Below are positions 8,709-29,543 of a DNA stretch of 37,774 nucleotides, piece after piece. The notes beneath the pieces were generated by a model. That model was not told where the DNA came from, searched no databases, and was given only the letters and a program-made list of their open reading frames with translations. Position numbers and translations under genes: made by a program. Position 1 is the stretch's first letter. Every line of letters starts with the position of its first letter. The stretch is taken from the NCBI GenBank assembly GCA_017453885.1, contig JAFTDZ010000274.1:1-37774 (forward strand), read 5' to 3'. Origin of the DNA: Clostridia bacterium. Its GTDB lineage: Bacteria; Bacillota; Clostridia; Christensenellales; Borkfalkiaceae.

Positions 8709-8741
8709 ACGCGTTTGAAGTGGTTCGGATAATATAAGCGT

Positions 8742-8787
8742 AAAAAAAGGAAACGATATTCTTTTACGGAATCCCGTTTCCTTTTTT
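8742..8787. terminator. Bidirectional rho-independent terminator between the convergent kinase and GH43 genes
   Basis: The stem AAAAAAAGGAAACG (8742-8755) pairs with CGTTTCCTTTTTT (8775-8787). An A-tract on the left and a T-tract on the right let it work in both directions. Confidence 0.8.
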
Positions 8788-8825
8788 GCTTCGGATATTT
8801 CTAAAAATGTTAATTGTTTTGCCGT

Positions 8826-9863: not shown

Positions 9864-9885
9864 AAAAGTTTCTCCTTTTTCTGAA

Positions 9886-9914
9886 ATTATACTATTTTTA
9901 CGGCGAGTTGTAAA
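9886..9914 (-). promoter_or_regulatory. SigA-type promoter for the GH43 gene
   Basis: On the minus strand: TTTACA (9914-9909), a 17-nt spacer, then TATAAT (9891-9886). It lies about 23 nt upstream of the start codon region with its AGGAG RBS. Confidence 0.5.
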
Positions 9915-9957
9915 GCGAAAGAAATTAAAGCGTTTTACTTATCCGGCAAAATAAAGA

Positions 9958-10003
9958 TCCCGCGGCGGCACGAAGGCGAAAACATCGTTCGTACCCCGCG
10001 GGA
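9958..10003 (-). terminator. Possible terminator downstream of the DUF4434-like gene
   Basis: An 8-bp GC-rich stem, TCCCGCGG (9958-9965) with CCGCGGGA (9996-10003), encloses a 30-nt loop containing an inner 5-bp stem. On the minus strand it is followed by CTTTATTTT. The large loop makes this call weak. Confidence 0.3.
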
Positions 10004-10025
10004 AAAATCCTGCGATTGCGGTAAA

Positions 10026-10913
10026 TTATTTTTTGCCGTAATAATCTACGTAGCGGGCGTAAAGGTTTCTCGCGGCGGGATAGGTAGACTGCGGCGAAAG
10101 GAAATGCGAAAATTCAAACATTATCGTCTTTTCCGCATAGGGAGAGAGTAGTTCTATCTTGCGCTTTAACAGTTCGAACGAAATGGGGTAATAAACGCCC
10201 GTTTTCGGCAGATCCCTCTCTATTGCCTCCGCGTTCTGCCAGAATTCTATGCCGTGCTTTTTGCATATCGGGCGGATGTTTTCGTAATATTCCTTCATCA
10301 GGTCAACGCCGAACGATCCGTCCTGAAAGGAGCATATATCAATATTTTTACCGCTTTTATTGAATATATCGTCCCACTCGGCGGCGCTTTCTTTAGGGGA
10401 AAGTTCGTAGAAGAAAGGGCTTATCATCACCTTTTTATCAGGCGTTTTTTCCTTGCACATATCCGAAAGCGCGCTGAAAATATCGGTTATATTAAGTATG
10501 TTGTTTCCCACTTCGTGCGGAATATACCATCCGTAAAAGGAAGGTATATCGCCGTATTTTTCCACTATTTCTTTAACGAAAAGTTTATTTTGCTTTATTT
10601 CCGTTTCGGCGTCGCCGTCGTTCCAGGTCAGGTTGGAAATATACATTCCCACGAAAACCTTCATATTCCTCTCCGCGGCTTTTTTCAGGATCATTCCCGC
10701 AAAGTCGTCCGATTCTTCGGTCCTGTACGTGGGGAATATCTTTGAAACGTAATTGGTGCGGTTATAAAAACCGCCGCGGATAAGTATAAGCGTGTCGATG
10801 CCTACTCCCTTCATATAGTCGAGGTCTTTCGCCCATTGTTCGTCCGACCAGTTCTGGGAAGGAATGTCGTAAGTCACGTCGTCTATAAACGTGCCCGTTA
10901 TGGGAAACTTCAT
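10026..10913 (-). CDS. DUF4434-like TIM-barrel protein (putative glycosidase), cytoplasmic
   Basis: The N-terminus FPITGTFIDDVTYDIPSQNWSDEQWAKDLDYMKGVGIDTLILIRGG resembles the DUF4434 family pattern as I remember it. The ORF is clean, with an AGGGGT RBS. Confidence 0.55.
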   Translation of the reverse strand: MKFPITGTFIDDVTYDIPSQNWSDEQWAKDLDYMKGVGIDTLILIRGGFYNRTNYVSKIFPTYRTEESDDFAGMILKKAAERNMKVFVGMYISNLTWNDGDAETEIKQNKLFVKEIVEKYGDIPSFYGWYIPHEVGNNILNITDIFSALSDMCKEKTPDKKVMISPFFYELSPKESAAEWDDIFNKSGKNIDICSFQDGSFGVDLMKEYYENIRPICKKHGIEFWQNAEAIERDLPKTGVYYPISFELLKRKIELLSPYAEKTIMFEFSHFLSPQSTYPAARNLYARYVDYYGKK

Positions 10914-16386: not shown

Positions 16387-19300
16387 ATGAAAAAAAGAAA
16401 CTTACTTACACTTCTTTCCGTGATTCTCGCTTTATCTCTGGCGATAGGATTTTCCACGATGTACGTATCGGCGGAAGGAGAAACAACGGTCGATTACGCG
16501 CTTGACGGCGCGAAGTGGCAGAGATCGACTAATGCGGCGTTCGACGCCGACGGTATGCGCGCGACTGCCGCGTCCTACGCGTGGGTGACGAACGAGGTAG
16601 GCGGAAATTCCACCGTAAAAGTAACTTCCGTCGCGAACATAGCGGACAGCACCTGGGGATATTCCTGGGTAATGGTCAAGTCCGACGGCACGCAGACGGC
16701 ATGGGATCCCGGGCAGGCAACTTCTACCGGTAACTTCATCGCCGTGGGCATAGGTCGGTCGGCGGGCGCGGTTTACGTTTACGAATGCGCAGACGGCGAA
16801 GTCACTGTGGATAAAGCCTGGCGTGATTTCAATAACGCGTTCGTATGGTACGAGGACAGGGGAACCACCGTTTACGAGATCACTTCGACGGATACCGATA
16901 CGGGCGTTAAACTCGATATAACCATAACAGGTAAAGAGAACGCCCAAGCCGGCGGCAGCGCCGTGTGCAGTTGGACGTATAACTCCGCAAACAAACAACT
17001 TTGGGGAAATCAGAACATTATAATCGGTCACACCGGCAGCGGAACTTTCGACGGAACTCAATATTATAAATACAACGTTGAAGTTACCGACAGGGCTTCC
17101 GCCTACGTTTACGATCCTTATACCCGTTACGATAACGACGCGGAAAAGTGGGGAACTTTATCCAACGTGACCGTTACCGATAGCGGAATGTATCAGACGG
17201 CAAATTCTTCCTCTGCGATAACTACGCCGTTCGGCGGCAACGCAACTATAAAGTTGGACGTGGACTTCGTGGAAGCGGCAGGCGGCTGGGGCGGCCTTAT
17301 GGTTATGGTGAAAGGCTCCGCGGAAGATTACGCGGCGACCGCGTGGGGTTGGGGATCGCCCGATCGCCCGGTGGTAAATTCGGCGCAAGGCAGTTGGATC
17401 GCCGTGTTTATCGGCAACGGCAAATGCGGCGTTATAACCTGCGATAACGGTACGGTCACCGAAAAGACGGACGCCGAAGCGTTTACCGGAATAAACGGAA
17501 ATTCCTTCTGGTACGTTCATAAACAGAAAAACTCTTTCGTCATCACTACCGAAGATTATGCCGACGGAGCGAAGATAAATATAGCCTTTACCCCTTCCGG
17601 TTACGCGGCAAACACTGGTGACACATATTTTTATACGGCGAATATAGAAAATAAGGCGCTTTGGGGCGAACAAAGCCTCGCCGTTCTCACGACCACGGGC
17701 GGCGGAACGTATAACGCCGAAACCAACGCTTACGGCGTTAAGATAGCCGCCGAAGATTCCGGTTACGAGTATGTAGTTGACGACGGCAGCGTCCGTTACG
17801 ATAACGACGCGGAAAAATGGGAAACTTTATCCAACGTGACCGTTACCGAGGACGGAATGTATCAGACTAACGCCGTCAACGGAAATTCTTCCGCGGTATC
17901 CGTCGCTTTCGGCGCAAACGCCACCGTTAAACTTACCGTTGACTACGTAAATGCGAACGGCGGTTACGGCGGACTTATCGTTATGGTAAAAGGCACCGCG
18001 GCGGATTACGCCGGCACGGTGTGGAAATGGGACAGTGCCACCGCGAGCGCAACTTCGGCGCAAGGCAGTTGGGTAGCCGTATATATCTATAACGGAGCCG
18101 CGGGCGTATATATCTGCAAGAACGGCGTTGTTACCGATATTTCCAATGCGTTTGCGGGAATAAACGGGTATTCCTTCTGGTACGTTCACAAACAGACGAA
18201 TACTTTCGTAATTACTACCGAAGATACCGCGACCGGCGCGAACGTTACTATATCGTTCACACCGTCCGGCCATGAAAGCAACACGGGGGCGACTTTCTCC
18301 TACACGGCGTCCGTTGAGGATAAGATGATATGGGGCGAGCAGAATCTCTCCGTGGTAAGCCTTTTCGGCGGCGGAACTTACGGTGCGGATACCAACGCTT
18401 ACAGCGTAAAAGTCAAGGCGGAAGCGTCCGAATACAATAAAGACATGGCGAAGGCTTACGAAGTTTCTGCGCTTATAAGCGCGATCTCCTACGAGGAAAT
18501 AACCGCCGCCAATTACACCGCGGTGAGGAACGCGACCGTAGCCGCGAGAACCGCTTACGACGCACTGACGCAGGCGCAGAAAAACCTTATAAACGAAGCG
18601 GAATACGCAGTTCTCACAAAGGCGGAAAGCGACCTTGAAAATGTGGACGCGTTGGTACTTGCGCAGTACGCGATAAGCATTCTGCCCGAAGGCGCGTTTA
18701 CCGTTGAAAATTACGAGGAAAATAAAGAACTCGTCCTCGACGCTTACGAAAAATACTCCGCACTCACCGACGAGCAGAAAGCGGAAATTTCAGATGACGA
18801 TACGCAGAAACTTCTTTCGCTGAAGGCTGCGCTCGACGAGTTTACCGTAAATTACGAAAAAGCGGCGGAAGTTGACGGAATGATAGCGACGCTTCCCGAA
18901 ACGATAACCGTTTACGGTGAGAATATGCGCGCGATAACCGCGGCGAAAGCGGCATACGACGCCCTTACCGACTATCAGAAAACACTCGTCGCGTCGTCGG
19001 CAAAACTCACCGCGGCGCTCAAAGCCCTCTCGGCTTATGAATACGCGCTTTACGGCAACGATTACAACTTTACCGCAAGCGAGGAGAATTTCGCCCACGT
19101 CGGCACCGAAGGCAGAATGGAATATTCCGAAAACGGCGTTACCGTAAACATAGGCGATAACGGGCAGAGTTTCGTTCTCGGCAGAAAACTCGGTAACGGC
19201 GAAACCGTTCAGTTCGTGATAGATTCCCGCCTTACCAATTCCGGTTGGGGCAACTTCTACTTCGTATTCAAGCACGACGAACCCGTAACGTGCCACAGCA

Positions 19301-20472
19301 AAGGCGCTTGGGCGCAGAGCGGTAACTACGCCGTTTTCCTTATCGGTACCGACGGCTTCAAAGTAGTCGAATGCGTAAACGGCGTTCTCCCCATGGGCGA
19401 AGATCCGAACGGAAATCCCATCGCTCAATGGTCAACGATTCTGGACGATCCTTCCACCCTCGAGGGCGCGAATAATTACGACGTGTGGTATGTGTGGAAG
19501 CAGGTGACCGTAGTTACGATAACCACCGTAGATAAGATAGACGAGGAAGACGGATTTATAGGTTGGGAAGCCACCATAACCTTGACAGGCGGAAATTCCG
19601 GCGCAACGATAACGCGGAAGTATTCTTCCACCAACACGGCGGTACAAGGCGCGGGTTACGTAGGAGTGGAATTCTTTACCGGCGCTAAGATAAACGAGGG
19701 AAGCGGCGGATTCAATCTGAGAAGCGTTACCGTAAAGGGCGTTGAAACTTACGACGCCAAGGCGGAAAAAGCCAAAGCAGTTTCCGAAAAGATAGCCTCT
19801 CTTCCCGAAGATATCACCGCCGAAAACGTTGAGAGCGTAAAGGCGATCATCGCGGAGATAAAAGAGAGTTACGCCGCTCTCGACGACGAATATAAGCAGA
19901 CCGTGGAAAACTACGGTAAAGTTGCCGAAACCGAAGCCGCCGTGGCGGTTTACGAATCCGGCGTTAAAGTAGCCGCGGTAACGGCTGAAATAGCGGGGCT
20001 CGGAGAAGCGGGAAATACAAGGGCTTCCTATTCCGAAGCGAGGGCTTCGTATCTCTCCGTGAACGCCGCTTACGAAGCGCTTACCGACGCCGAAAAGGCT
20101 GCCGTAACGAACGCCGATAAACTCGCCGCGTTCAGGGCGGCGCTCGAGGCGCTCAAGGCGGATATAGATGCCGCCGACGGAACGGACGCGCTCATCACCG
20201 CGCTTATAACCGACGTTACCGCCGAAAACATCAACGACGCGAAAGCCGCTTACGAAGCCGCATATAACGCCTACGCGGCGCTTACCGACGCGCAGAAGGC
20301 TCTTCTCACCGAGGACGCCGCCGTTATCGAAACCGTTAAAGCCGCTATAGACGCGATCGAAACGCCCGAAAAGAAAGGTTGCTTCGGCGGGATCGACGCG
20401 GGGTACGGCATCATCTCGGCGTTTGCGGCGCTCGCTCTCGCGGCGGTCGCGAAGAGGAGATTCGCAAGATAG
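16387..20472 (+). CDS. 1361-aa secreted modular surface protein: signal peptide, four copies of an unassigned ~220-aa beta-rich module, two Ala-rich helical repeat regions and a KKGC/TM/basic C-terminal tail
   Basis: Strong RBS AAAGGAGGAAATT-ATG. The signal peptide is MKKRNLLTLLSVILALSLAIGFSTMYVSA/EG. Modules span roughly aa 30-243, 244-466, 467-690 and 905-1130. The helical repeats carry A-Y-x-A-L-T-D-x-Q-K six times. The tail is KKGCFGGIDAGYGIISAFAALALAAVAKRRFAR. Confidence 0.85.
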   Translation: MKKRNLLTLLSVILALSLAIGFSTMYVSAEGETTVDYALDGAKWQRSTNAAFDADGMRATAASYAWVTNEVGGNSTVKVTSVANIADSTWGYSWVMVKSDGTQTAWDPGQATSTGNFIAVGIGRSAGAVYVYECADGEVTVDKAWRDFNNAFVWYEDRGTTVYEITSTDTDTGVKLDITITGKENAQAGGSAVCSWTYNSANKQLWGNQNIIIGHTGSGTFDGTQYYKYNVEVTDRASAYVYDPYTRYDNDAEKWGTLSNVTVTDSGMYQTANSSSAITTPFGGNATIKLDVDFVEAAGGWGGLMVMVKGSAEDYAATAWGWGSPDRPVVNSAQGSWIAVFIGNGKCGVITCDNGTVTEKTDAEAFTGINGNSFWYVHKQKNSFVITTEDYADGAKINIAFTPSGYAANTGDTYFYTANIENKALWGEQSLAVLTTTGGGTYNAETNAYGVKIAAEDSGYEYVVDDGSVRYDNDAEKWETLSNVTVTEDGMYQTNAVNGNSSAVSVAFGANATVKLTVDYVNANGGYGGLIVMVKGTAADYAGTVWKWDSATASATSAQGSWVAVYIYNGAAGVYICKNGVVTDISNAFAGINGYSFWYVHKQTNTFVITTEDTATGANVTISFTPSGHESNTGATFSYTASVEDKMIWGEQNLSVVSLFGGGTYGADTNAYSVKVKAEASEYNKDMAKAYEVSALISAISYEEITAANYTAVRNATVAARTAYDALTQAQKNLINEAEYAVLTKAESDLENVDALVLAQYAISILPEGAFTVENYEENKELVLDAYEKYSALTDEQKAEISDDDTQKLLSLKAALDEFTVNYEKAAEVDGMIATLPETITVYGENMRAITAAKAAYDALTDYQKTLVASSAKLTAALKALSAYEYALYGNDYNFTASEENFAHVGTEGRMEYSENGVTVNIGDNGQSFVLGRKLGNGETVQFVIDSRLTNSGWGNFYFVFKHDEPVTCHSKGAWAQSGNYAVFLIGTDGFKVVECVNGVLPMGEDPNGNPIAQWSTILDDPSTLEGANNYDVWYVWKQVTVVTITTVDKIDEEDGFIGWEATITLTGGNSGATITRKYSSTNTAVQGAGYVGVEFFTGAKINEGSGGFNLRSVTVKGVETYDAKAEKAKAVSEKIASLPEDITAENVESVKAIIAEIKESYAALDDEYKQTVENYGKVAETEAAVAVYESGVKVAAVTAEIAGLGEAGNTRASYSEARASYLSVNAAYEALTDAEKAAVTNADKLAAFRAALEALKADIDAADGTDALITALITDVTAENINDAKAAYEAAYNAYAALTDAQKALLTEDAAVIETVKAAIDAIETPEKKGCFGGIDAGYGIISAFAALALAAVAKRRFAR
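17116..18453 (+). repeat. Tandem in-frame duplication, 2 x 669 nt (223 aa), inside the surface-protein gene
   Basis: 17125-17196 matches 17794-17865 with about 5 mismatches in 72 nt. 17502-17558 matches 18171-18227 with about 7 mismatches in 57 nt. The offset is exactly 669 nt in both cases. The rest of the units are similar at protein level. Confidence 0.85.
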
Positions 20473-20486
20473 TTCAACGTTGCTTT

Positions 20487-20526
20487 GCGGTTGCGGCTTG
20501 ACCGCCGCAACCGCTTAAAAGTTTTT
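20487..20526 (+). terminator. Rho-independent-like hairpin after the surface-protein gene
   Basis: A perfect 11-bp stem, GCGGTTGCGGC (20487-20497) with GCCGCAACCGC (20504-20514), has a 6-nt loop and is followed by TTAAAAGTTTTT. The next gene starts only 24 nt later, so it probably terminates only partially. Confidence 0.65.
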
Positions 20527-20549
20527 ATAAAAGCGCAAAGAGGTTCAAC

Positions 20550-22415
20550 TTGAAAAGTTTTTACGCAAAAATCAGAACGGCAATACTTATCGCCGCCGCG
20601 GCGATGCTTTGCTTTATATTGTGTTCCTGTTCCGCCGCGGAGGTAAACCTCGCCCGCGACGGCAGCGGGACCGCCACCGTGAGAATAGCCAAAACTTACA
20701 TCGACGACGGCGTTACCGTTTCCGTTACGGAAAAAGACGTAAAGGACAGGATAGACGGCTTGATAAAAGCGGTGGAATACAGTTCCGGCATGGAGAACAG
20801 GTTAAAACTGAGATCTATCAAAGATGCCGGCGAATTTTACTCTGTAAATCTTTCTTTCATGCGCGCTCAATATATCTGTACATACGGCGGTGACGCGGGC
20901 TATTACTCTTATAAAAAGTCCTCGGAATTCGTAAAGGAGGCGGACAGCGTAGCCACGCTTACGGAATATTGGTATTACGGTTCTTATAAACCGTATCTTA
21001 AAAGTTACGAAAACGCCAAATACAACTTCGCCAACTACAGGCGGCCGAGCGCAAACGCCGCTCTCAAACCAAAGCGCGCCGGCGCGGAACTTACCGAGGC
21101 TGAAGTTGCCGGACTGTTTTCGGAAAGCGGAGAACTTGCGGAAAATGCCCGCGGGCGCATATTCACTTTTTACATAGCGGATATGGAATGGCTTGAAAGC
21201 ATAACTTTCAACTTCAAAGGGAAAGTAGAGGTTTACGCCGGTACCGGAACGGTTACCGCGGGCGAACGCTCGCTGACCGTCACGCCCGTAACCGAAAAGG
21301 CGGACATAACGGGTATAGACGCCGACGGGGAAGTGATTCACGAAACTCGCGACGTAAAATGTTTTGTCGGCTACGTATATTTCACGCTCGAAGCGAATAA
21401 AGCCGCCGTCGGCATATTCGCCGTTCTCGGCGTCGCTCTCGCCGGCTTCGTTATTTACGGAATAATTACCGGCGTTTTCAAAAGGTTTTTCAAAGGGAAA
21501 TTCTTCAGGTCGCTCGTCAGGAACTACGACCTGTATCTTATGGTCATACCGGGCGTAGTTCTGCTCTTTTTGTTCGCGTATCTGCCGATGGGCGGCGTAA
21601 CGCTCGCCTTCAAAAACTACCGCACTACGGACGGGATATGGAGAAGCGAGTGGACGTCTATGTTCGGGCTCAAAAATTTTTACGATCTGTTCGCGGAGAG
21701 GAACAGTTTCCCGCTGCTGATAAAAAACACTTTCGTGCTGGCGTTCTGGAAGTTTATTTTCGGTTTTCTTATCGCCATAGCGCTCGCGGTGCTGTTCAGT
21801 TATCTTAAAAACGGGCTGTTCAAAAAGACCGTTCAGACGATCTCTTACTTCCCGTATTTTATATCGTGGGTGGTAATTTCCACCATATCGTATATGTTTC
21901 TCGCCACCGACGGCGGAATACTCAACAAGGCGATAACCGCGTTCGGCGGAACGGCGATAAACTGGTACGCCTCGCCGAAATACTGGCCGTTCATTCTCAC
22001 CTTTACGGCTATGTGGCGAACGGCGGGGTATTCTACGATAATTTACCTCGCGGCGATAGTGAATATAAATCCGTCCCTTTACGAAGCGGCGACGATAGAC
22101 GGGGCGGGCAGGTTTCAGCAACTTCTGCACATCACCCTGCCGGGGCTTATCCCCGTTCTCGGGATACAGATAGTGTTCAGCCTCGGCAATCTCGTAAGGG
22201 ACGATTTCGACCAGATATACACCATGGTAAGGGGAAGCGCTCTGTTAAGGGACACCACCGATACCATAGGTAAAATAGTTTACGAAAATATAGGAACACC
22301 CTCGGCTTACAGCAGTACCGCCGCTATGGGGCTTTTGCAGGGATTAGTGGGGCTTATACTCGTGGTGACGAGCAACGCCATTTTAAAGCGCCACGACATT
22401 CAGGGCGCGTATTGA
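20550..22415 (+). CDS. ABC sugar-transporter permease (LplB/CUT1 type) fused to a ~310-aa N-terminal lipobox, extracytoplasmic domain and extra TM
   Basis: The TTG start lies 6 nt after the AAAGAGG RBS. The lipobox-like sequence is FILCSC (Cys27). A domain with no recognisable family spans about aa 28-284, and a TM spans aa 285-309. The canonical LplB-like core follows (NYDLYLMVIPGVVLLFLFAYLPMGGVTLAFKNY ... EAATIDGAGRFQQLLHITLP, the EAA loop). Confidence 0.85.
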   Translation: MKSFYAKIRTAILIAAAAMLCFILCSCSAAEVNLARDGSGTATVRIAKTYIDDGVTVSVTEKDVKDRIDGLIKAVEYSSGMENRLKLRSIKDAGEFYSVNLSFMRAQYICTYGGDAGYYSYKKSSEFVKEADSVATLTEYWYYGSYKPYLKSYENAKYNFANYRRPSANAALKPKRAGAELTEAEVAGLFSESGELAENARGRIFTFYIADMEWLESITFNFKGKVEVYAGTGTVTAGERSLTVTPVTEKADITGIDADGEVIHETRDVKCFVGYVYFTLEANKAAVGIFAVLGVALAGFVIYGIITGVFKRFFKGKFFRSLVRNYDLYLMVIPGVVLLFLFAYLPMGGVTLAFKNYRTTDGIWRSEWTSMFGLKNFYDLFAERNSFPLLIKNTFVLAFWKFIFGFLIAIALAVLFSYLKNGLFKKTVQTISYFPYFISWVVISTISYMFLATDGGILNKAITAFGGTAINWYASPKYWPFILTFTAMWRTAGYSTIIYLAAIVNINPSLYEAATIDGAGRFQQLLHITLPGLIPVLGIQIVFSLGNLVRDDFDQIYTMVRGSALLRDTTDTIGKIVYENIGTPSAYSSTAAMGLLQGLVGLILVVTSNAILKRHDIQGAY

Positions 22416-22426
22416 GAGGTGAAGGT

Positions 22427-23302
22427 ATGATAATACGTTCCAGAGGAGAAAAGATATTCGACGTGATAAACGTGTTTATCATGATCGTTTTCGCGGCGCT
22501 TTTCATAATACCCGCGCTTCTTATGATATGCTCGTCCTTCACCGCCACGCGGGAACTCACGCTTTACGGTTACAGCCTTATAATACGCAAATTTTCGCTC
22601 GAATACTACAAGAGCATTTTCGGAATGGAGAGCAATCAATTTGTGCTATCGCTCGGCAACTCCGTATTCGTATCGGGGCTGACCACCTTCTTTATGGTGC
22701 TTACGACGAGTTTCTTCGCCTACGCCATAACCCGCAAACAGATGAAATTCAAAAAGATTCTTTCGTTCTATCTTATTATCCCTATGCTGTTCAGCGGGGG
22801 CACCATACCTTATTACCTTATCGTGAACGGTTTGGGGCTGATGAATTCGCTTTGGGCTATAATACTGCCGGGTTCGGTCAGCGCCTGGTATATACTGCTC
22901 GTAAAAAATTTCTTTTCTTCGCTGTCCGAAAGTCTTAACGAGGCGGCGGAGATAGAGGGCGCGTCTAATTTTCAGGTGTTGTTTCACATAACGCTACCGC
23001 TCGGCTTTCCGATAATAGCCACCATAATATTATATACAGCCGTCGGCACCTGGAACGACTGGTTTCAGGCTTCCATATTTCTCGACAGCAATCACTATAA
23101 CCTCTGGCCGCTGCAGGCTTTCGTAAGGCGGCTGCAGGACAGCGACGAATTCTTAAAATCGTATTTCGGCAACACTTCGCTCAATTTCAACGGAATAAGA
23201 ACTGCCGCCGTTATACTGTCGCTGATACCGATAATTATGGTGTATCCGTTCGTTCAGCGTTTCTTCATAGAGGGAACGATGGTCGGTTCGGTAAAAGAAT
23301 AA
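22427..23302 (+). CDS. ABC sugar-transporter permease (LplC/CUT1 type)
   Basis: The ATG at 22427 follows a GAGGTGAAGG RBS. The EAA-loop region is EAAEIEGASNFQVLFHITLPLGFP. There are six predicted hydrophobic segments. Confidence 0.9.
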   Translation: MIIRSRGEKIFDVINVFIMIVFAALFIIPALLMICSSFTATRELTLYGYSLIIRKFSLEYYKSIFGMESNQFVLSLGNSVFVSGLTTFFMVLTTSFFAYAITRKQMKFKKILSFYLIIPMLFSGGTIPYYLIVNGLGLMNSLWAIILPGSVSAWYILLVKNFFSSLSESLNEAAEIEGASNFQVLFHITLPLGFPIIATIILYTAVGTWNDWFQASIFLDSNHYNLWPLQAFVRRLQDSDEFLKSYFGNTSLNFNGIRTAAVILSLIPIIMVYPFVQRFFIEGTMVGSVKE

Positions 23303-23324: not shown

Positions 23325-24995
23325 ATGAAAAAAATTATAGTTTTACTACTCGTTCTCTGCGTGGGAACGGCACTGTTCTCTTGTAAGAAAGAGAAGGTCA
23401 AAGATTCCACCGGCGAGGGAACTTCCGCTTCCCAAACCTGGGAAGAAGCCAAATCGAACAGCGTAAAAATAACCGTTTATATGGACGAGAGCAACGTTTA
23501 CGGCGCTTACGTAAGGGGCTCGGAAGAAAAATTCGTCAAGGACGCCGTGGAGAAAAAATTCTGGGAAGATACCGGCAACGCAATAGATCTGAACGTGATA
23601 ATAGAATCGCATTCTACTTTCAGCAACTCCTTCGCGGGTGTAATGTCCACGGGCGCGTGGGACGCTGCCGTATCCTATCTCGGGCAGGCGGGGCTTGAAG
23701 AGACCGTTCTGAATAACGACGTTACGCTCGACCTGACCGATTCTTTAAGAAGATACGGTTCGCACATATACGGCGAAAACGGCGCCGTTGACGACGAGGC
23801 GCTATACGCCGTTACGAACTTCAACGAGGAGATAATAGGTATCCCTTCGGTAAATCTCACCAAGCAAAAGGGCGTACTCGTGCGCAAGGACTATATGGCC
23901 GCCGTTGGATACACCGAGAGCAAAACCGAGGCGGAAAATTCCGGCGGAACGCTTAAATACTGCGGCACCATAAAGGATTTTGACCAAATGGTGCGCAAGA
24001 TGAAGGCGGAGATACCCAAGTGCGTAACGCCGCTTTCCGGCAACGTTTACGATATGGAGTTTACCCTTCTCGCAGGGGCTTACGGCACCGCAGGCTACCA
24101 GTACAGGTCGATAAATTACAACGATAACGGAACGATAAACGAAGTCGTACCCGGGTGGATATCGGAAAATTACGGCAAAGTTCTCAAGCAGGAATACGAC
24201 TGGGTAAAGGACGAAATATGGGAAGCGGACAACGCCACCATAACCGAGAGCGTAAGGCTTTCCAACCTCGCGGCGGGCAAGACGGCGGTTTATTTCGCCA
24301 ACCCCACCGTAACCAACCTTATAGACGTTTCGAGAAGGGTAAAAGCGATAGATTCTTCGGCGGAATTCGTACTGCTCGATCCGCTCGACGCGGTTGACGA
24401 ATCCGGCAACGCGATAGAGGGCACGGGCGCCTTCGTGGAAGTTTCCCGCACGACGGATTGCCTTATAGTAAACAAAAAATCCAAAAAGGCCGATCTCGTT
24501 ATAAAGTATCTCGACTGGATGTATTCGGATAAAGACAATTACGAACTCTGCGCTTACGGCGTAAAGGGCTCTCAATGGAAAGATTCTTCCTTCGGCAGCG
24601 ATTATTACGAATATGCGGACGATTATTACGTAGATCACAGACCGTATTCGGGCGTTTACGCCCTGCTCCACAACGACGAGATCTCCTGCCGCATCCTGAT
24701 GCAGTATAGCGAAACGGAGAGGAACTGGATAGAAAAGGTCAGGAATTATCCCTGCCTTTCCAACCCGACGGACGGAATGCTTTTCTACGGAATGAGCGCG
24801 CTTATAAACTCCAACTTCGTAACGGCGGAAGCGGATATGTATCTCAACTGCGCTACGAAGGCTTGGGCGGGCGCTTCCGATCCCGCGGTGACGTGGCCTG
24901 CCGCCTGCGAGCATTACAGAAATCAGGCGGGCGACTATATAGTATGGCTTACTAATCAATATAAACTTTACAAAGCCGCGAGGATCAACGGATAA
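23325..24995 (+). CDS. Large (556 aa) lipoprotein solute-binding protein of the ABC importer (LplA-like)
   Basis: RBS AAAGGAGGAG. The signal peptide has the lipobox LFSC. Its size and position directly after two CUT1 permeases are typical of LplA-type extracellular solute-binding proteins. Confidence 0.8.
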   Translation: MKKIIVLLLVLCVGTALFSCKKEKVKDSTGEGTSASQTWEEAKSNSVKITVYMDESNVYGAYVRGSEEKFVKDAVEKKFWEDTGNAIDLNVIIESHSTFSNSFAGVMSTGAWDAAVSYLGQAGLEETVLNNDVTLDLTDSLRRYGSHIYGENGAVDDEALYAVTNFNEEIIGIPSVNLTKQKGVLVRKDYMAAVGYTESKTEAENSGGTLKYCGTIKDFDQMVRKMKAEIPKCVTPLSGNVYDMEFTLLAGAYGTAGYQYRSINYNDNGTINEVVPGWISENYGKVLKQEYDWVKDEIWEADNATITESVRLSNLAAGKTAVYFANPTVTNLIDVSRRVKAIDSSAEFVLLDPLDAVDESGNAIEGTGAFVEVSRTTDCLIVNKKSKKADLVIKYLDWMYSDKDNYELCAYGVKGSQWKDSSFGSDYYEYADDYYVDHRPYSGVYALLHNDEISCRILMQYSETERNWIEKVRNYPCLSNPTDGMLFYGMSALINSNFVTAEADMYLNCATKAWAGASDPAVTWPAACEHYRNQAGDYIVWLTNQYKLYKAARING

Positions 24996-25050: not shown

Positions 25051-26355
25051 ATGAAAAAATTAAGGATGATAACGGCAGTTTTCGCCGCAGCGGCGATCTT
25101 GGCGGCAATGCCGCTTTTCGCGGCGTCGGCAGAGGGCTATTCTTATGAAATAGCCGAGGAAAACGACCTCGCTTCCTGGCGGTACGACTGGAACACCGTG
25201 GAGATAGGCTCGGGCAAAACCGGTTTTGAAAGCGGAAACCTGAAAATGGAGAACATAAATCAGGGCACCGCGAACTACGCACTTTACAAAACAAACAAAT
25301 TCAACGAATTTCAACTCGATTTTTACGCAAATCTGTATCTGCCTTCCCCGAGCGACACGGGCAAGGACGGAACAGATTACGCCAACCTTTACTTGACTTT
25401 TTATATCGATTTCGACGACGCTTCTCTCGTTGAGAACGCGGCTATGGCGGCTTGCCCGTGGACTATGAACAAGGGCTGGTTCTCCGTGTGCTTCGAGAGA
25501 ATACAGGGTTACAGCAAAATTCAGTTCCTCGTCAACGAAACTTTCGACGGTCACGGAGAAACCCGTTACTTCCTCGATAAGGACTGCGTAACCGCTTCCA
25601 CCGACTGGTGCGACAACAAATATCATTGGTTCAGAATAACCGCGCAAAGTACCCGCACGGCGGATTTCGCCACGTCCGGCTGTACTTACACCGTTTATAT
25701 CGACGGGGAAAAGGAAGCCGAAACTTTCCTTTGCGACAGGATATATTCCAACACCAACCTCGCGTGGGAAGAAGTCAGGTTCAGCGAGAAGAAGGGATAC
25801 TTCGGCTTCTGGGCTTCAAGCGGTTACGGAATGGGTATGGGCACAGCCGAAACCGGCGCTATGGCGGATATAAAAAATCTTTCCGTAACATCTTTCGACG
25901 GCGGGAACGACACCCCGTATCCGAGGTCGGCTATGCCCGTTGCGAATATTTCCGCCAACAATTCTTTCTCTCCAGAAGCGAGTTACGAAACGGGCGAAGA
26001 TATAGAGATAAGGCTTGCCGATCTGTTCGAGTACGACGGCGAGGATAAATTAACATATACCGCTTCTTACAACGGAGAGCCGATAGGCGAGATAAAGAAC
26101 AACTATTTCGTATGGAACCCGACGGAAGAGGGCGTTTACGATATTGACTTCACGGCGGTCACCGCAGACGATCTCTCCGCAGCGAACAAAGTCCGCCTGC
26201 GCGTGGTAAAAGGCGCCGCGCCCGTTCAGCCTGCGGAAAGTTCCGATAAAGTAAGCGAAAAGACTTCTAAAAAAGGTTGCGGTTCGTCTGTTTCCGCAGG
26301 TTTCAGCGGCATTGTTTTGCTCGCCGTTTTCGCCCTGCGCAAAAAGAGAGCGTGA
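25051..26355 (+). CDS. Secreted surface protein: ConA/LamG-like beta-sandwich (pattern-level guess), Ig-like domain and KKGC/TM/basic C-terminal tail
   Basis: RBS GGAGGA. The signal peptide ends AASA/EG. There is no catalytic motif I recognise. The end-of-domain pattern KKGYFGFWASSG...MADIKNLSVTSFD is reminiscent of lectin-like jelly rolls. The tail is KKGCGSSVSAGFSGIVLLAVFALRKKRA. Confidence 0.7.
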   Translation: MKKLRMITAVFAAAAILAAMPLFAASAEGYSYEIAEENDLASWRYDWNTVEIGSGKTGFESGNLKMENINQGTANYALYKTNKFNEFQLDFYANLYLPSPSDTGKDGTDYANLYLTFYIDFDDASLVENAAMAACPWTMNKGWFSVCFERIQGYSKIQFLVNETFDGHGETRYFLDKDCVTASTDWCDNKYHWFRITAQSTRTADFATSGCTYTVYIDGEKEAETFLCDRIYSNTNLAWEEVRFSEKKGYFGFWASSGYGMGMGTAETGAMADIKNLSVTSFDGGNDTPYPRSAMPVANISANNSFSPEASYETGEDIEIRLADLFEYDGEDKLTYTASYNGEPIGEIKNNYFVWNPTEEGVYDIDFTAVTADDLSAANKVRLRVVKGAAPVQPAESSDKVSEKTSKKGCGSSVSAGFSGIVLLAVFALRKKRA

Positions 26356-26367: not shown

Positions 26368-27969
26368 ATGAAAAAGATATTTTCTATTATTATAACGGCG
26401 ATCATGGCTATTTCTCTTTCCGCCTGCGGAACAAAACCGGATTCTTCCGCCGGCGTTTCCGCGGGTAAAGATATTATTTCGATAAGTGATTCCGCCATAG
26501 CGGCGGGGTACGCGCGGTACGACGTGACTTCCGCCCTTAAAAGAAAGACGGAGGGCTTCGGCGCGCAGTTCGATACGTGCGTACTTGACAGGAACAACAA
26601 ACATCTTACCGACTGGGAAGTTTATAAAAAGGCGGTAAAAACTTCTAACCTGCAGGCGGTAAGGATAAGATTTTATCCCGAAATGTACGAGAGGATGAAC
26701 GATAATTCCGATCCGGATACGTTCGATTTCGAAAGCCCGAACGTGGATTTCAACTCCATAGAGATGGGCTATCTGTATAAACTTCTCGACCTTTTCGAGG
26801 AAAACGGCGTGCGCGTGGATCTTTCCTGGTACGGTTGCCGTTCCACTTTCGCTTCCGAGGACGGAAAAATAACGGGCAGTTGGCTCGGCGGCAAGTACGG
26901 CGAAAACGGCGTGAACAATTGGATGGTACAGCCCTCGCTCACCGAAAAACCCGCGGAAGAGTTTGCCGAATCCGTTGCGGCTTGCCTCTATTACCTCATA
27001 GAGGTGAAAAAATATACCTGCCTTTACGAATACAGCCTTTTTCCCGAGCCGGAAGGCGTGATCAAAGATATGGATCTCTACGGGAAGATAGCCGCGCTCA
27101 CGAAGGAAAAACTCGCCGGATACGGCATTGCGGATAAAATTTTGTTTTCCGGCCCCGCCGACTACGGCAACAATGCCGAAAACCTTAAAAACAAATATTT
27201 AAGCGGTAAATATCCTTACGACAAGGTAGATTCTTCCGTTTACTGTTTCCACGGTACCACGTCCGTCAGCGGTGTGGAGAGGGCGCCTTCGCCCAATGCG
27301 GCAATGTACGAATTTGCCAAAAATCACGTTGACGTATGCGAGGAGTTCGGCGCGTCCTGGGGCGTTGCCGAATGCGGAACGAGCAACTTTATTACCGCGG
27401 TCACCAACGCCGATACCGAACTTTACGACAGGGCTATAACGATGGCGCGCTTCCTTATAAATTTATGTAACGCCGGTTGCACGAATATCAAATATTTCGT
27501 TTTCGGCGACTGCAGTTACGACGGGATACTCAACGAGGAAGGGCTGTTCAGGTTCGCAAGATCCGCGTACTCGGATTCCGCGATAGATTATCAGGCGAAG
27601 CCCGTGTGGTACGCTTGGTCGCTTCTTATGCGTTACACCGATATAGGCAGCGAGGTTTATCCTATAACCGTAAATTACGACGACGGCGACGACGAGGTTT
27701 GCATAACGGCTTTTCGCTTGCCCGACGGCAGTTGGACTTACGCCGCCGCTAACATAGGCGGCGGGCAGAAGAAGATAGCGCTCGTAAACGGCAGGGCGGA
27801 CAGACCTTCCTCAATGAAGATATTCCGCCTCACCGCGGCGAGTACTCCTTCGGGAGCCGACGCCGAACTGAAAATTATAGATAAGTACGGCGATGCGGAC
27901 GCGTCCGGCGGCGTGGCGTATTTCACTATACCCGCTAACGGCATAGCGGTGCTTTCGGATAAAGAATAA
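26368..27969 (+). CDS. Lipoprotein, putative clan GH-A-like (beta/alpha)8 glycosidase with C-terminal beta-sandwich; family not assignable
   Basis: The lipobox is LSAC. GFGAQFD is like the GH30-type N-terminal motif. The candidate acid/base Glu is in LFPEPEG and the candidate nucleophile Glu is in WGVAECG. It is a paralog of the next gene. Confidence 0.65.
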   Translation: MKKIFSIIITAIMAISLSACGTKPDSSAGVSAGKDIISISDSAIAAGYARYDVTSALKRKTEGFGAQFDTCVLDRNNKHLTDWEVYKKAVKTSNLQAVRIRFYPEMYERMNDNSDPDTFDFESPNVDFNSIEMGYLYKLLDLFEENGVRVDLSWYGCRSTFASEDGKITGSWLGGKYGENGVNNWMVQPSLTEKPAEEFAESVAACLYYLIEVKKYTCLYEYSLFPEPEGVIKDMDLYGKIAALTKEKLAGYGIADKILFSGPADYGNNAENLKNKYLSGKYPYDKVDSSVYCFHGTTSVSGVERAPSPNAAMYEFAKNHVDVCEEFGASWGVAECGTSNFITAVTNADTELYDRAITMARFLINLCNAGCTNIKYFVFGDCSYDGILNEEGLFRFARSAYSDSAIDYQAKPVWYAWSLLMRYTDIGSEVYPITVNYDDGDDEVCITAFRLPDGSWTYAAANIGGGQKKIALVNGRADRPSSMKIFRLTAASTPSGADAELKIIDKYGDADASGGVAYFTIPANGIAVLSDKE

Positions 27970-27983: not shown

Positions 27984-29543
27984 GTGAATATGAAAAAATT
28001 TATTTGTTTTATTCTCGCGGCGACGGTTTTGTTTCTCGTTTCGTGCAAGAACGGAGATTCTTCCGTTCCCGATAAAGGCGCGATAACGGGGGAGATCGCC
28101 GTAAACGCGGGTTATGTCCGTTACGACGTGGGCAAAAAACTTCCCGATCCGATAGTCGGTTTCGGGGCGCAGATGGATACGGATATATTTATGCCTTACA
28201 ACAAGATGACCGAAGAGGACGAAGCCCTTTGGGAAGAGCGTATAAAGGATATGAATATCCGCTATACAAGGATAAAGATGTTCCCCGAATTTTTCGAACG
28301 CGCCAACGACAATGACGATCCCGACGTTTTCGATTGGGATTCCGAGGGCGTGGATTTCGATTGCGCGGAGATGCAGGCTTTATATAAAATTCTCGACCTG
28401 TGCGAAAAATACGATATAAAGGCGGATCTGAGTTGGTACGATTGCTGGAGCAATTTCAAGTCTTACGACGGAACGGTAAACGGCAGTTGGCTTGCGGTCG
28501 ATCAATCCGGCTGGGCGAAGGCTCCTAAAGATTTTTACGAGTACGCGGAAAACATTTCCGCCTGCCTGCAATACCTTATCAATGTAAAAAAATACACTTG
28601 TCTTTGGGGCTTCAGCAATATAGCCGAAGGGTTCATCGACGAAAACAACGTTAAAAGTTGGCCCGCCTACGTGGAGAGTTGCCGCATCATCGACGAAAAA
28701 TTAAAAAAAGACGGAATAAGGGATAAAATAAGGTTTATAAGTTCCACCGAGCGCGGCATAATTAAATATTTCAAAGAGGAATACGGCGAGATAAAGGACT
28801 ATTTTGACGTTGTAGGGCTCGGCAATTACAGTTGGGACAATAACGATCCGAACGAGGCTATCTATTCTTACTATGCGGATCTTCGTGAGGCGGTCGATGA
28901 ATTCGGCGTGCGCGACATAGTGATCTCCGAATTCTGCGAGGGCAAGCACTTTACGGACGCGGTCAATAAAACGGACATCGACGACTATACAGCCGGTCTG
29001 TATATAGCGCGCTTTTGCATAAACGCCGCTTCCGAAGGCGTTACCGGTTTCGACCACTATATCCTCGGCGACGTGTGGTTTACCGACTCCTACGTTCACA
29101 CGATGGGGCTTTGGATGTACCGCGACAGCAACGTGAAAAACCCCGAATATATTTCCTGGGCGGCTCACCCCGAATATTATTTTTACGGGCTTATCTGCAA
29201 ATATAACGAGCCGGGCAGTTACGTTTACAGGCTCGACCAGAAGTTGAATTCCGTATACGACGACAGAGATCCCGATATATGCTGCGTGGCTTTCAACCTG
29301 CCTGACGGCAGTTGGTCTTACTATCTGGCGAACAGCGGCTCTTCGGGCAAAAAGATCGCTATAGTAAACGCCCTCGCAAACCGCCCCGCCAGAATGAATT
29401 GCTACAAGATAACCGAAGCGGGCATTCCGGAGGACAGGGCTTGCGTTCTGCCTTCGGCTTATACGCAGATAGACGCGAGCGACGGCGTGGCTTACGTTAC
29501 CGTTCCGGCGAACGGTTTCGTGGTGGTATCCGACAGAAAATAA
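27984..29543 (+). CDS. Lipoprotein, tandem paralog of 26368-27969 (putative clan GH-A-like glycosidase)
   Basis: The GTG start lies 9 nt after the AAGGAG RBS. The lipobox is LVSC. Blocks shared with the upstream gene are GFGAQ.DT, DDPD.FD, DLSWY, NGSWL, CL.YLI.VKKYTCL, LPDGSW.Y and GVAY.T.PANG..V.SD. Confidence 0.65.
   Translation: MNMKKFICFILAATVLFLVSCKNGDSSVPDKGAITGEIAVNAGYVRYDVGKKLPDPIVGFGAQMDTDIFMPYNKMTEEDEALWEERIKDMNIRYTRIKMFPEFFERANDNDDPDVFDWDSEGVDFDCAEMQALYKILDLCEKYDIKADLSWYDCWSNFKSYDGTVNGSWLAVDQSGWAKAPKDFYEYAENISACLQYLINVKKYTCLWGFSNIAEGFIDENNVKSWPAYVESCRIIDEKLKKDGIRDKIRFISSTERGIIKYFKEEYGEIKDYFDVVGLGNYSWDNNDPNEAIYSYYADLREAVDEFGVRDIVISEFCEGKHFTDAVNKTDIDDYTAGLYIARFCINAASEGVTGFDHYILGDVWFTDSYVHTMGLWMYRDSNVKNPEYISWAAHPEYYFYGLICKYNEPGSYVYRLDQKLNSVYDDRDPDICCVAFNLPDGSWSYYLANSGSSGKKIAIVNALANRPARMNCYKITEAGIPEDRACVLPSAYTQIDASDGVAYVTVPANGFVVVSDRK

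What the first reader, a model, noticed from the sequence alone, without database searches (positions are those of the whole stretch)
20550..21476. ABC permease carries a ~310-aa N-terminal extension with a lipobox, an extracytoplasmic domain and an extra TM helix
LplB-type CUT1 permeases normally begin about 20 residues before the NYxLYLMxxPG segment. Here that segment starts at about aa 325 of a single uninterrupted ORF.

The extension consists of a signal peptide with a lipobox-like FILCSC (Cys27), about 255 residues of a domain I cannot assign, and one TM helix (aa 285-309).

The topology is self-consistent. The domain sits outside, the extra TM crosses inward, and the permease N-terminus ends up in the cytoplasm as usual. 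There is no in-frame Met between the extra TM and the conserved LYLM segment, so the permease cannot be a separate gene.

An extracellular domain hard-wired to the channel could dock the SBP or the surface glycan-capture proteins, loosely like the MalF P2 loop.
Basis: partly seen in the sequence, partly recalled or inferred. Interest (0 to 1): 0.65.

Follow-up and report, generated by a model that had tools for sequence, protein, structure and literature searches.

The report
ABC sugar permease fused to accessory domain
A gut-bacterial sugar-uptake channel protein really does carry an extra ~310-residue outward-facing, membrane-anchored domain; the same uncharacterised domain is encoded in other bacteria as a separate gene just upstream of the same kind of channel, so it looks like a previously unnoticed accessory part of these transporters.

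Summary
Window 20550-22415(+) is one 621-aa ORF made of these parts:
- a signal peptide with lipobox (Cys27)
- an outside domain of about 255 aa
- one extra TM helix (aa 284-309)
- a 16-aa basic linker
- a normal 6-TM LplB/CUT1 permease

It is not an assembly artefact. Forty-five independent homologues (36-61% identity, 590-637 aa) keep the same architecture, and Cys27 is invariant. Contigs from four other sequencing runs show only substitutions.

The new finding is that the extension belongs to a small unannotated family, with no Pfam, NCBIfam, PDB or BFVD match. The AF2 model is confident (pLDDT 92). The family also occurs as stand-alone 303-363-aa proteins with a signal, the domain and a C-terminal TM. 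In 7 of 7 loci examined, that gene lies immediately upstream of an LplB-like permease, a second permease and usually a ~550-aa SBP-like protein. Fused forms with long linkers sit among stand-alone forms in a rough tree, which suggests repeated fusion.

I conclude it is an accessory subunit of a subclass of LplBC importers, hard-wired here. Its function is inferred, not shown; I favour docking or retention of the lipoprotein SBP, as the MalF P2 loop does. I rate it a new variant of a known kind, of moderate interest.

The parts
20537..20543 (+). Shine-Dalgarno-like AAAGAGG, 6 nt upstream of the TTG start
   Evidence: Read directly from the sequence. The N-terminus aligns with the Met starts of the homologues.
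20550..20630 (+). Signal peptide with lipobox (aa 1-27: basic n-region, hydrophobic core, L24-C25-S26-C27). Cys27 is the predicted lipidated first residue of the mature protein.
   Evidence: Hydropathy segment 4-35 and 3 K/R in aa 1-12. Cys27 is invariant in 46 homologues with S/G/A at position -1. Lipidation itself is inferred.
20631..21398 (+). Extracytoplasmic mixed alpha/beta domain (aa 28-283) of an unannotated family. It starts 2 residues after the lipid anchor and ends 3 residues before the TM helix.
   Evidence: AF2 model with pLDDT 92 and pTM 0.83. No Pfam or NCBIfam hit. No PDB or BFVD fold match and no PDB sequence-profile match. Homologous to the stand-alone family: hhalign probability 100%, E 8e-55.
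21399..21476 (+). Extra transmembrane helix (aa 284-309), running from outside to inside
   Evidence: Hydropathy segment 282-311. AF2 helix 284-307. Present in every family member, fused or stand-alone.
21477..21524 (+). Short basic cytoplasmic linker (aa 310-325, KRFFKGKFFRSLVR), corresponding to the usual N-terminal tail of LplB permeases
   Evidence: 6 K/R in aa 309-328. Unfused LplB relatives start aligning at query residues about 294-333.
21525..22415 (+). LplB-type (CUT1) type I ABC importer transmembrane domain, 6 TM helices (aa 326-621), with the NYDLYLM motif and the EAA loop at aa 511-532 (nt 22080-22145)
   Evidence: Pfam BPD_transp_1, E 1.5e-11. NCBIfam hits to UgpA, GlcT and MalF. 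Foldseek hits to AlgM1 4TQV_A (E 4.5e-14, TMt 0.70), MalF and SugA.
22412..23302 (+). Partner permease (LplC/MalG-like). Its ORF overlaps the stop codon of the fused gene.
   Evidence: Pfam BPD_transp_1. NCBIfam MalG, E 1.7e-21. Syntenic in all fused and stand-alone loci.
23325..24995 (+). 556-aa lipoprotein, the putative substrate-binding protein of the system
   Evidence: N-terminus ...LFSC. Weak SBP_bac_1 hit, E 0.0059, spanning profile positions 9-305 of 307. Homologues follow the permease pair in fused and stand-alone loci. The gene at the equivalent position in L089 carries PF01547.

Best explanation
**What it is (shown).** The 621-aa protein is a natural fusion of two units.
- Unit (i) is a member of a small, unannotated family of cell-surface membrane proteins. 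Each has an N-terminal signal (a lipobox in this clade), a ~255-aa extracytoplasmic alpha/beta domain and a C-terminal TM helix.
- Unit (ii) is an ordinary LplB-type (CUT1) ABC sugar-importer permease.
- In other Clostridia, unit (i) is a separate gene directly upstream of the LplB-like gene, overlapping it or within about 20 nt.

**What follows (strong inference).** The family is therefore an accessory subunit of a subclass of LplB/LplC/SBP importers. In the window's clade it is hard-wired through a 16-residue cytoplasmic linker.

**How it sits (inferred from sequence and model).**
- Cys27 is lipid-modified and the signal peptide is removed.
- The domain lies on the outer leaflet, pinned at both ends: by the lipid 2 residues before its first strand, and by the TM helix 3 residues after its last strand.
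- The extra helix packs beside permease TM1.

**What it does (inference, not shown).** It adds an outward-facing surface next to the LplB/LplC mouth. That surface docks or retains the cognate 556-aa lipoprotein SBP and so helps hand oligosaccharide to the channel. This is functionally like the MalF P2 loop, but it is not homologous to it.

**My confidence by level.**
- Real conserved fusion: about 0.97.
- Accessory subunit that physically works with LplB: about 0.85.
- SBP docking or hand-over as the specific role: about 0.35.
For: **The architecture is conserved.**
- 45 homologous clusters share it at 36-61% identity, and Cys27 is invariant.
- In a scan of species-representative genomes, 19 of the 79 best LplB loci carry the fusion. 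All are uncultured gut Clostridia-type MAGs.

**The domain also exists as a stand-alone protein.**
- An exhaustive HMMER search with aa 1-325 finds 43 representative clusters. About half are fused (598-721 aa) and about half are stand-alone (303-363 aa).
- All have both hydrophobic segments.
- A profile-profile comparison of fused and stand-alone sets gives probability 100%, E 8e-55, over 285 columns.

**The stand-alone gene is coupled to the permease gene.**
- 7 of 7 stand-alone genes lie immediately upstream of an LplB-like permease, overlapping it or within about 20 nt.
- In the 5 loci with enough downstream sequence a second permease follows, and in 4 a ~550-aa protein follows that.

**Fusion probably happened more than once.** In a rough NJ tree, fused members with long 44-90-aa linkers are interspersed among stand-alone ones.

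**The domain model is confident, and the topology is consistent.**
- The AF2 domain model has pLDDT 92.
- Positive-inside charges and the EAA loop position support the topology.

**Weak hint of an outer-face contact.** Residues that distinguish module-associated permeases from 62 other LplB permeases lie mostly in or near the extracytoplasmic loops TM3-4 and TM5-6: Y473, W479, Q540, M559, T570, G574.

**A separate SBP exists.** An SBP-like lipoprotein gene is present in every such locus.
Against: - There is no direct evidence for any binding partner. No multimer modelling was possible, and the inter-domain geometry of the full-length model is unreliable (pTM 0.54).
- The invariant residues of the domain are almost all Gly, Pro, Phe or Cys. 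No conserved binding or catalytic site stands out.
- The SBP556-type protein also occurs in three related loci that lack the module (L027, L029, L049). The module is therefore not strictly needed for that type of SBP.
- The loop differences may simply reflect shared ancestry, and the comparison set was chosen by motif.
- Lipidation of Cys27 is predicted only, and position -2 of the lipobox (Cys) is atypical.
Confidence: 0.55

Rival explanations
1. The module is an assembly, stability or membrane-organisation factor for the LplB/LplC heterodimer. Its extra TM helix and doubly anchored ectodomain would stabilise or localise the translocator, with no direct role in SBP docking or substrate handling.
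For: - Its only constant partners are the two permeases.
- The conserved residues are structural: Gly, Pro and aromatics.
- The TM helix and short linker hold it against TM1.
- SBP556-type proteins exist without it.
Against: - A ~255-aa folded ectodomain is a large investment for a pure stabiliser.
- Most LplB/LplC pairs work without one: 60 of the 79 loci have none.
Confidence: 0.22
2. The ectodomain binds glycan, or bridges to the surface glycan-capture proteins. It would concentrate oligosaccharides released by the neighbouring surface enzymes at the channel, or tether the transporter to those C-terminally anchored surface proteins.
For: - The fused clade sits in a strongly conserved locus: a giant surface protein, a 434-aa anchored protein, two unknown lipoproteins, GH78 and others (Pfam).
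- The domain is Tyr-rich, with 20 Tyr in 254 aa.
Against: - Stand-alone members occur in loci with different neighbours. L005, for example, has dehydrogenases and an EamA transporter upstream, and L089 has unrelated genes.
- No CBM or lectin family or fold is matched.
- No conserved aromatic platform could be identified without model coordinates.
Confidence: 0.15
3. The extension is a fused substrate-binding domain, as in OpuA or GlnPQ-type importers, where the SBD is part of the permease polypeptide.
For: - SBD-TMD fusions are a known architecture (PMC3971661).
- A MalE-MalF fusion exists in Bdellovibrio (PMC6906923).
Against: - No periplasmic-binding-protein family or fold is matched.
- A separate SBP-like lipoprotein gene follows the permeases in every locus.
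- The secondary structure is not the two-lobe alpha/beta Rossmann-like pattern of SBPs.
Confidence: 0.04
4. It is an artefact: a missed stop or frameshift has joined a lipoprotein gene to a normal permease gene in this assembly.
For: Stand-alone versions of the module do exist upstream of LplB genes in other organisms, often with overlapping stop and start codons. A 1-nt error could mimic a fusion.
Against: - 45 independent protein clusters from many assemblies have the same continuous ORF, with a conserved short linker.
- 19 species-representative genomes carry it.
- Contigs of 4 other runs show no indel across 20500-22500.
- There is no in-frame start codon for a separate permease.
Confidence: 0.02

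Closest known systems
MalF P2 loop of the E. coli maltose importer MalFGK2-E
   Same: - Both are large folded extracytoplasmic domains that are part of a CUT1 type I importer TMD.
- In MalF, the domain binds the SBP (MalE) throughout the transport cycle (PMC6906923).
- MalF also has extra N-terminal TM helices beyond the core (PMC3971661).
   Different: - P2 is an Ig-like insertion between TM3 and TM4. Here the domain is N-terminal, lipid-anchored and followed by its own TM helix.
- There is no fold or sequence similarity. The domain model gives no significant PDB match at all, and MalF matches only the permease half of the full-length model.
- Here the module also exists as a separate gene.
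SBD-TMD fusion importers (OpuA, GlnPQ; MalE-MalF fusion of Bdellovibrio)
   Same: In both, an extracytoplasmic protein that works with the translocator is covalently fused to the permease, sometimes at its N-terminus (PMC3971661; PMC6906923).
   Different: - The fused unit here is not an SBP-fold domain.
- A separate SBP-like gene is retained.
LplB/LplC/LplA-type (KEGG 'aldouronate transport system') CUT1 importers of Bacillota
   Same: - The C-terminal half is a typical LplB permease, with the NYxLYLM motif, the EAA loop, an LplC partner and a large ~550-aa lipoprotein SBP.
- JGI names homologues 'putative aldouronate transport system permease protein'.
- The closest solved fold is AlgM1 of the alginate importer.
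   Different: - Ordinary members start at about query residue 310-330 and have no module gene within 8 kb.
- The gene order here is permease-permease-SBP.

Membership tests
Type I ABC importer transmembrane domain (Pfam BPD_transp_1; CUT1 / LplB subfamily) | BPD_transp_1 profile match above the gathering threshold | tested here: met
   44.8 bits against a cut-off of 26.4, at aa 407-589.
Type I ABC importer transmembrane domain (Pfam BPD_transp_1; CUT1 / LplB subfamily) | EAA coupling-loop motif (EAA-x3-G-x9-I-x-LP) between TM4 and TM5 of the 6-TM core | tested here: met
   YEAATIDGAGRFQQLLHITLPG at aa 511-532. E512, A513, D517, G518 and P531 are invariant in 46 homologues.
Type I ABC importer transmembrane domain (Pfam BPD_transp_1; CUT1 / LplB subfamily) | Fold of solved CUT1 permeases | tested here: met
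   Foldseek matches AlgM1 4TQV_A (E 4.5e-14, 30% identity, TMt 0.70), MalF and SugA. All cover only about 250-350 columns, that is, the C-terminal half.
Type I ABC importer transmembrane domain (Pfam BPD_transp_1; CUT1 / LplB subfamily) | Adjacent second permease gene and an SBP gene | tested here: met
   A MalG/LplC-like gene lies at 22412-23302. The 556-aa lipoprotein has a weak SBP_bac_1 hit. This order is conserved.
Type I ABC importer transmembrane domain (Pfam BPD_transp_1; CUT1 / LplB subfamily) | Cognate ABC ATPase | tested here: not met
   None of the 23 large ORFs scanned against Pfam has an ABC_tran domain. The remaining ORFs of 200 aa or more were not scanned and overlap these genes. 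From general knowledge, CUT1 systems of Bacillota commonly use a shared MsmX/MsmK-type ATPase encoded elsewhere, so this does not argue against membership.
Bacterial lipoprotein (Lgt/LspA substrate) | Basic n-region, hydrophobic h-region, lipobox [LVI][ASTVI][GAS]C | tested here: inconclusive
   MKSFYAKIRT... then a hydrophobic core, then L-C-S-C27. Positions -3 and -1 fit, but position -2 (Cys) is atypical. Cys27 is invariant and position -1 is always S, G or A in 46 homologues. No dedicated predictor (SignalP/LipoP) was available.
Bacterial lipoprotein (Lgt/LspA substrate) | Demonstrated diacylglycerol modification and signal peptidase II cleavage | not testable with these tools
   This needs palmitate labelling, globomycin sensitivity or mass spectrometry.
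MalF P2-type SBP-docking domain | Ig-like domain inserted between TM3 and TM4 of the permease | tested here: not met
   The domain is N-terminal to the permease core. The domain model gives no significant PDB match, MalF included.
MalF P2-type SBP-docking domain | Direct binding of the cognate SBP | not testable with these tools
   No multimer prediction or experiment was available.
SBD-fused ABC importers (OpuA/GlnP type) | The fused extracytoplasmic domain has a periplasmic-binding-protein fold | tested here: not met
   No SBP family in Pfam or NCBIfam. No PDB fold match or profile match.
New family: 'LplB-associated doubly anchored ectodomain' (defined here) | N-terminal signal or anchor, ~250-aa domain matching the A2 profile, and a C-terminal TM helix; encoded fused to, or immediately upstream of, an LplB-like permease | tested here: met
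   The window protein scores E 1.7e-105 against the A2 HMM, though it is itself one of the A2 sequences. All 40 representatives tested match at E of about 1e-18 or better, and all near-full-length ones have both hydrophobic segments. Genomic coupling holds in 7 of 7 stand-alone cases.

The most novel reading that the evidence does not exclude
The extension defines a previously unrecognised accessory component, with a fold not represented in the PDB, of a subclass of Gram-positive CUT1 oligosaccharide importers.
- It would be a doubly membrane-anchored ectodomain that physically couples the lipoprotein SBP, or the surface glycan-processing machinery, to the translocator.
- It has been fused to the permease several times independently.
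- If so, some type I ABC importers have a fifth, structurally new subunit class that shapes how substrate is delivered at the Gram-positive surface.
Probability: 0.35. Interest if true: 0.7.

Novelty: new variant of a known kind. Interest (0 to 1): 0.55.

Why it matters
**Current picture.** Type I ABC importers are usually described as two TMDs, two NBDs and an SBP. Extra extracytoplasmic parts are known in very few cases, the MalF P2 loop being the textbook one. Little is known about how Gram-positive gut bacteria hand oligosaccharides from surface enzymes to lipoprotein SBPs and then to the channel.

**What this adds.** A confidently modelled, unannotated domain family sits beside an LplB-type permease in every case examined, either as a coupled upstream gene or fused to it. 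It is a concrete candidate for a new accessory subunit. The split-versus-fused pattern predicts a physical partnership that can be tested directly.

**Practical consequences.**
- Public annotation calls these proteins simply 'sugar ABC transporter permease', so half of each protein is currently invisible to annotation.
- The family deserves a domain model of its own.

**Ecological setting.**
- The carriers are uncultured gut or rumen Clostridia.
- The locus is rich in rhamnosidase- and pectin-type enzymes, so it bears on fibre degradation.

Tried and rejected
**Searches that found nothing for the extension.**
- The word-indexed protein search with the extension alone found nothing. With the stand-alone alignment it returned only 2 proteins. 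These are limits of the tool, not biological results. The exhaustive HMMER search was the one that worked.
- The search for related loci with the N-domain alignment failed because no stretch was conserved enough. I used the full-length alignment instead.
- Pfam and NCBIfam gave nothing for the extension or for 10 homologues. Only noise hits appeared, on the TM helix and in a few other short stretches.
- Foldseek with the domain model against PDB and BFVD gave a best E of about 1e-2. No full-length hit exceeded a TM-score of 0.25, and only short ~80-residue fragments aligned better. The low-ranking hits (hot-dog dehydratase, START-like, kinase, Fab, OST48) were rejected as noise.
- A sequence-profile search of the PDB gave nothing below E 0.39.

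**Ideas rejected.**
- An enzymatic role: no conserved polar or catalytic residues. Invariant Ser79 sits in an S-G helix cap, and Lys48 does not appear in the stand-alone clade's consensus.
- A second copy of the module in the window: none.

**Checks that were uninformative.**
- The promoter/terminator scan around the operon was not above the shuffled expectation.
- Literature searches for LplB extensions or accessory ectodomains of CUT1 importers found no description of this module.
- The full-length AF2 model was too uncertain between domains (pTM 0.54) to read a docking geometry from it.
Full report
**1. The observation**

Window 20550-22415(+) is a single 621-aa ORF. It starts at TTG, 6 nt after an AAAGAGG Shine-Dalgarno-like sequence. 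Pfam recognises only BPD_transp_1, at aa 407-589. NCBIfam gives UgpA, GlcT and MalF-type permease hits, all starting at aa 326 or later. Residues 1-309 match nothing in Pfam or NCBIfam, even at permissive thresholds.

Hydropathy analysis shows hydrophobic segments at aa 4-35 and 282-311, followed by the permease helices. There are 3 K/R in aa 1-12 and 6 K/R in aa 309-328. Between aa 280 and 345 the only in-frame start codons are ATG at M331, inside the LYLM motif, and TTG at 341.

**2. It is not an artefact**

- A full-length protein search returned 45 independent clusters of 590-637 aa that cover 96-100% of the query at 36-61% identity.
- In their alignment, Cys27 is invariant and always preceded by S, G or A. 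The hydrophobic segment before the permease core is present throughout.
- A scan of one genome per species (185,579 species) found 428 LplB-like permeases. Among the best 79 loci, 19 carry the fused architecture. These are L007-L024 and L026, although the L026 copy is interrupted (511-aa ORF). All come from uncultured gut MAGs labelled Clostridia, Christensenellaceae, Ca. Scatosoma, 'Bacilli' or Erysipelotrichaceae.
- The other 60 loci (Paenibacillus, Cohnella, Butyrivibrio, Treponema and others) align only from query residues about 294-333. This confirms where ordinary LplB permeases begin.
- Logan contigs from four other gut or bovine-gut runs lie on 20500-22500 with substitutions only. One contig crosses the junction, covering 20941-21794.

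**3. What the extension is**

An exhaustive HMMER search of 1.84 billion representative proteins with aa 1-325 found only 43 clusters. About half are fused proteins of 598-721 aa. About half are stand-alone proteins of 303-363 aa.

Every full-length member has an N-terminal hydrophobic signal, the ~250-aa domain and a C-terminal TM helix. All 40 representatives tested match a profile built from the fused clade, and the full-length ones do so at E 1e-32 to 1e-80. A profile-profile comparison of the fused and stand-alone sets gives probability 100%, E 8e-55, over 285 columns.

I looked up the genomic context of seven stand-alone members (P0059, P0060, P0062, P0067, P0069, P0078, P0095).
- In all seven, the gene is immediately upstream of the next gene. 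It overlaps it in five cases, leaves a 2-nt gap in one (L088) and an 18-nt gap in one (L086).
- In five loci that next gene is a BPD_transp_1 permease, and a second permease follows it. A ~550-aa protein homologous to the window's 556-aa lipoprotein then follows in four of them.
- In L004 the next gene is cut by the contig end, but its translation shows an LplB-type N-terminus.
- In L088 the next gene is also cut and was not identified.

This is a classic split-versus-fused (Rosetta-stone) pattern.

A rough NJ tree of the domain shows two groups.
- Clade I, which contains the window protein, is uniformly fused. Its members have a lipobox Cys and, in nearly all cases where the linker could be measured, a short ~15-residue linker.
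- Clade II is mostly stand-alone. Its members usually have a 'GF[TS]' motif instead of a lipobox Cys. Fused members with long 44-90-aa linkers are interspersed among them. Those linkers look like a retained charged tail joined to the permease N-terminus.

This suggests several independent fusions. The tree is only approximate.

**4. Structure**

AF2 on a 27-sequence alignment of the module gives a confident model (mean pLDDT 92, pTM 0.83).
- It is a mixed alpha/beta domain. The first strand begins 2 residues after Cys27.
- A long final beta-hairpin (247-256 and 262-280) runs almost directly into the TM helix at 284-307.
- Both ends of the domain are therefore at the membrane surface.

Foldseek finds no significant match in the PDB or in BFVD. 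The best E is about 1e-2, no full-length hit exceeds a TM-score of 0.25, and only short ~80-residue fragments align better. A sequence-profile search of the PDB also finds nothing.

The full-length model reproduces the same domain. Its C-terminal half matches AlgM1 of the alginate importer (E 4.5e-14, 30% identity), MalF and SugA. No hit extends into the N-terminal half. The inter-domain geometry is unreliable (pTM 0.54).

**5. Topology**

The EAA coupling loop (aa 511-532, invariant core residues) must face the ATPase in the cytoplasm; this is established for type I importers (PMC3971661). With six core helices, that requires the N-terminus of permease TM1 to be inside. The extra helix therefore runs from outside to inside, and aa 28-283 lie outside. 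This agrees with the signal peptide and lipobox and with the positive-inside charge distribution. No dedicated predictor was available.

**6. Locus context**

The fused clade sits in a strongly syntenic locus. The order is:
- GH78 rhamnosidase and a GDSL/GH63-like protein
- a giant surface protein (1361 aa in the window)
- in many loci, a divergently transcribed AraC regulator directly upstream of the fused gene (in the window it lies further downstream, at 32780-33679, minus strand)
- the module-LplB fusion, then LplC, then the 556-aa lipoprotein
- a 434-aa anchored protein
- two paralogous ~525-aa lipoproteins with no family match
- a GDPD-domain protein and/or an N-acylglucosamine-2-epimerase-like protein

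The window also holds GH2, GH28-like, DUF2961, GH43, DUF4434, a hybrid histidine kinase, an FGGY kinase and a class II aldolase. This points to a rhamnose- or pectin-type glycan utilisation locus; the substrate is an inference.

None of the 23 large ORFs scanned against Pfam has an ABC ATPase domain. From general knowledge, this is usual for CUT1 systems of Bacillota, which often share an MsmX-type ATPase.

Stand-alone members sit in different neighbourhoods. The only constant partners of the module are the two permeases and, usually, the SBP.

**7. Mechanism**

Shown:
- The fusion is real and conserved.
- The module is an autonomous family.
- Its gene is coupled to LplB-like genes.

Strongly inferred:
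- It is a stoichiometric accessory subunit that sits beside LplB TM1 on the outer face.

Inferred only:
- Its job. I favour an SBP docking or retention surface, analogous in function to the MalF P2 loop. That loop binds MalE with micromolar affinity throughout the transport cycle (PMC6906923).

One weak supporting hint comes from comparing permeases. Residues shared by module-associated permeases, both fused and split, but rare in 62 other LplB permeases lie mostly in or near the extracytoplasmic TM3-4 and TM5-6 loops: Y473, W479, Q540, M559, T570, G574. This may simply reflect shared ancestry, and the comparison set was chosen by motif.

Evidence against a strict SBP link: SBP556-type proteins occur in three related loci that lack the module.

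Rivals:
- a stabilising or organising factor for LplB/LplC
- a glycan-binding or bridging domain
- a fused SBD (rejected: no SBP fold, and a separate SBP gene is present)
- an enzyme (rejected: the invariant residues are Gly, Pro, Phe and Cys)
- an artefact (rejected)

**8. Comparison with what is known, and novelty**

- The C-terminal half is an ordinary LplB/CUT1 permease.
- The extension works, at most, like MalF P2 or like an SBD fusion. It is a member of neither: its position, fold and family tests all fail.
- Public records call these proteins 'sugar ABC transporter permease'.
- No paper in the searchable library describes the module.

I classify it as a new variant of a known kind: a type I ABC importer with an unannotated, possibly new-fold accessory ectodomain that alternates between separate-gene and fused states. 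Interest is moderate, at 0.55. The architecture and the family are solid and new to annotation. The function remains to be shown.

Noticed in passing
window 16387-20472(+), 25051-26355(+), 29560-31521(+): Three secreted proteins of the locus (1361 aa, 434 aa, and the 653-aa GDPD-domain protein) end in the same kind of tail: KKGC-x(1-3)-G, a hydrophobic stretch, then a K/R cluster. It looks like a shared C-terminal sorting or anchoring signal with a conserved Cys. Pfam and NCBIfam scans reported no C-terminal sorting-signal model; the GDPD protein was scanned against Pfam only.
   Followed up: partly
window 26368-27969(+) and 27984-29543(+): Two paralogous ~525-aa lipoproteins (LSAC / LVSC signals, GFGAQ-DT motif) have no Pfam or NCBIfam match. 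They are conserved just downstream of the transporter in most fused-clade loci. They may be unknown surface glycoside hydrolases or binding proteins.
   Followed up: partly
window 16387-20472(+): The 1361-aa surface protein contains obvious internal repeats. The segment ...RYDNDAEKW(G/E)TLSNVTVT(D/E).GMYQT... recurs with about 230-aa spacing, and Ala/Glu-rich helical segments follow. Its only Pfam hit is a sub-threshold LTXXQ match.
   Followed up: no
window 20473-20549: The 77-nt gap between the surface-protein gene and the fused permease gene holds a GC-rich inverted repeat (GCGGTTGCGGC-TTGA-CCGCCGCAACCGC) followed by an A/T-rich stretch. The consensus terminator scan did not list it. It may be a partial terminator or attenuator that sets the expression ratio.
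   Followed up: partly
L001 7301-7780, L086 7152-7634, L087 9491-9970 (and the genes that follow): In three stand-alone-module loci, the SBP-like gene is followed by a conserved 159-160-aa protein with no Pfam hit. In two of these (L001 and L087) a beta-helix (pectate-lyase-like) protein comes next; in L086 the next gene runs off the locus. This may be another conserved, uncharacterised component of that variant.
   Followed up: no
L026 7944-10347: In this MAG the fused gene appears interrupted. The ORF is 511 aa, the module profile matches only to position 229, and the permease match is spread over 8001-10323. This could be a frameshift, an insertion or an assembly problem.
   Followed up: no
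window 20802-22130(-): A 442-aa ORF lies antisense to the fused permease gene. There is no evidence that it is a gene, and it is probably a by-product of the codon usage of the sense gene.
   Followed up: no
stand-alone and clade II family members (P0059-P0095): Most clade II members replace the lipobox Cys with a conserved 'G-F-[TS]' motif at the end of the signal segment. It is unclear whether this is a signal peptidase I site or an uncleaved anchor. If uncleaved, the ectodomain would be held by two TM helices.
   Followed up: partly
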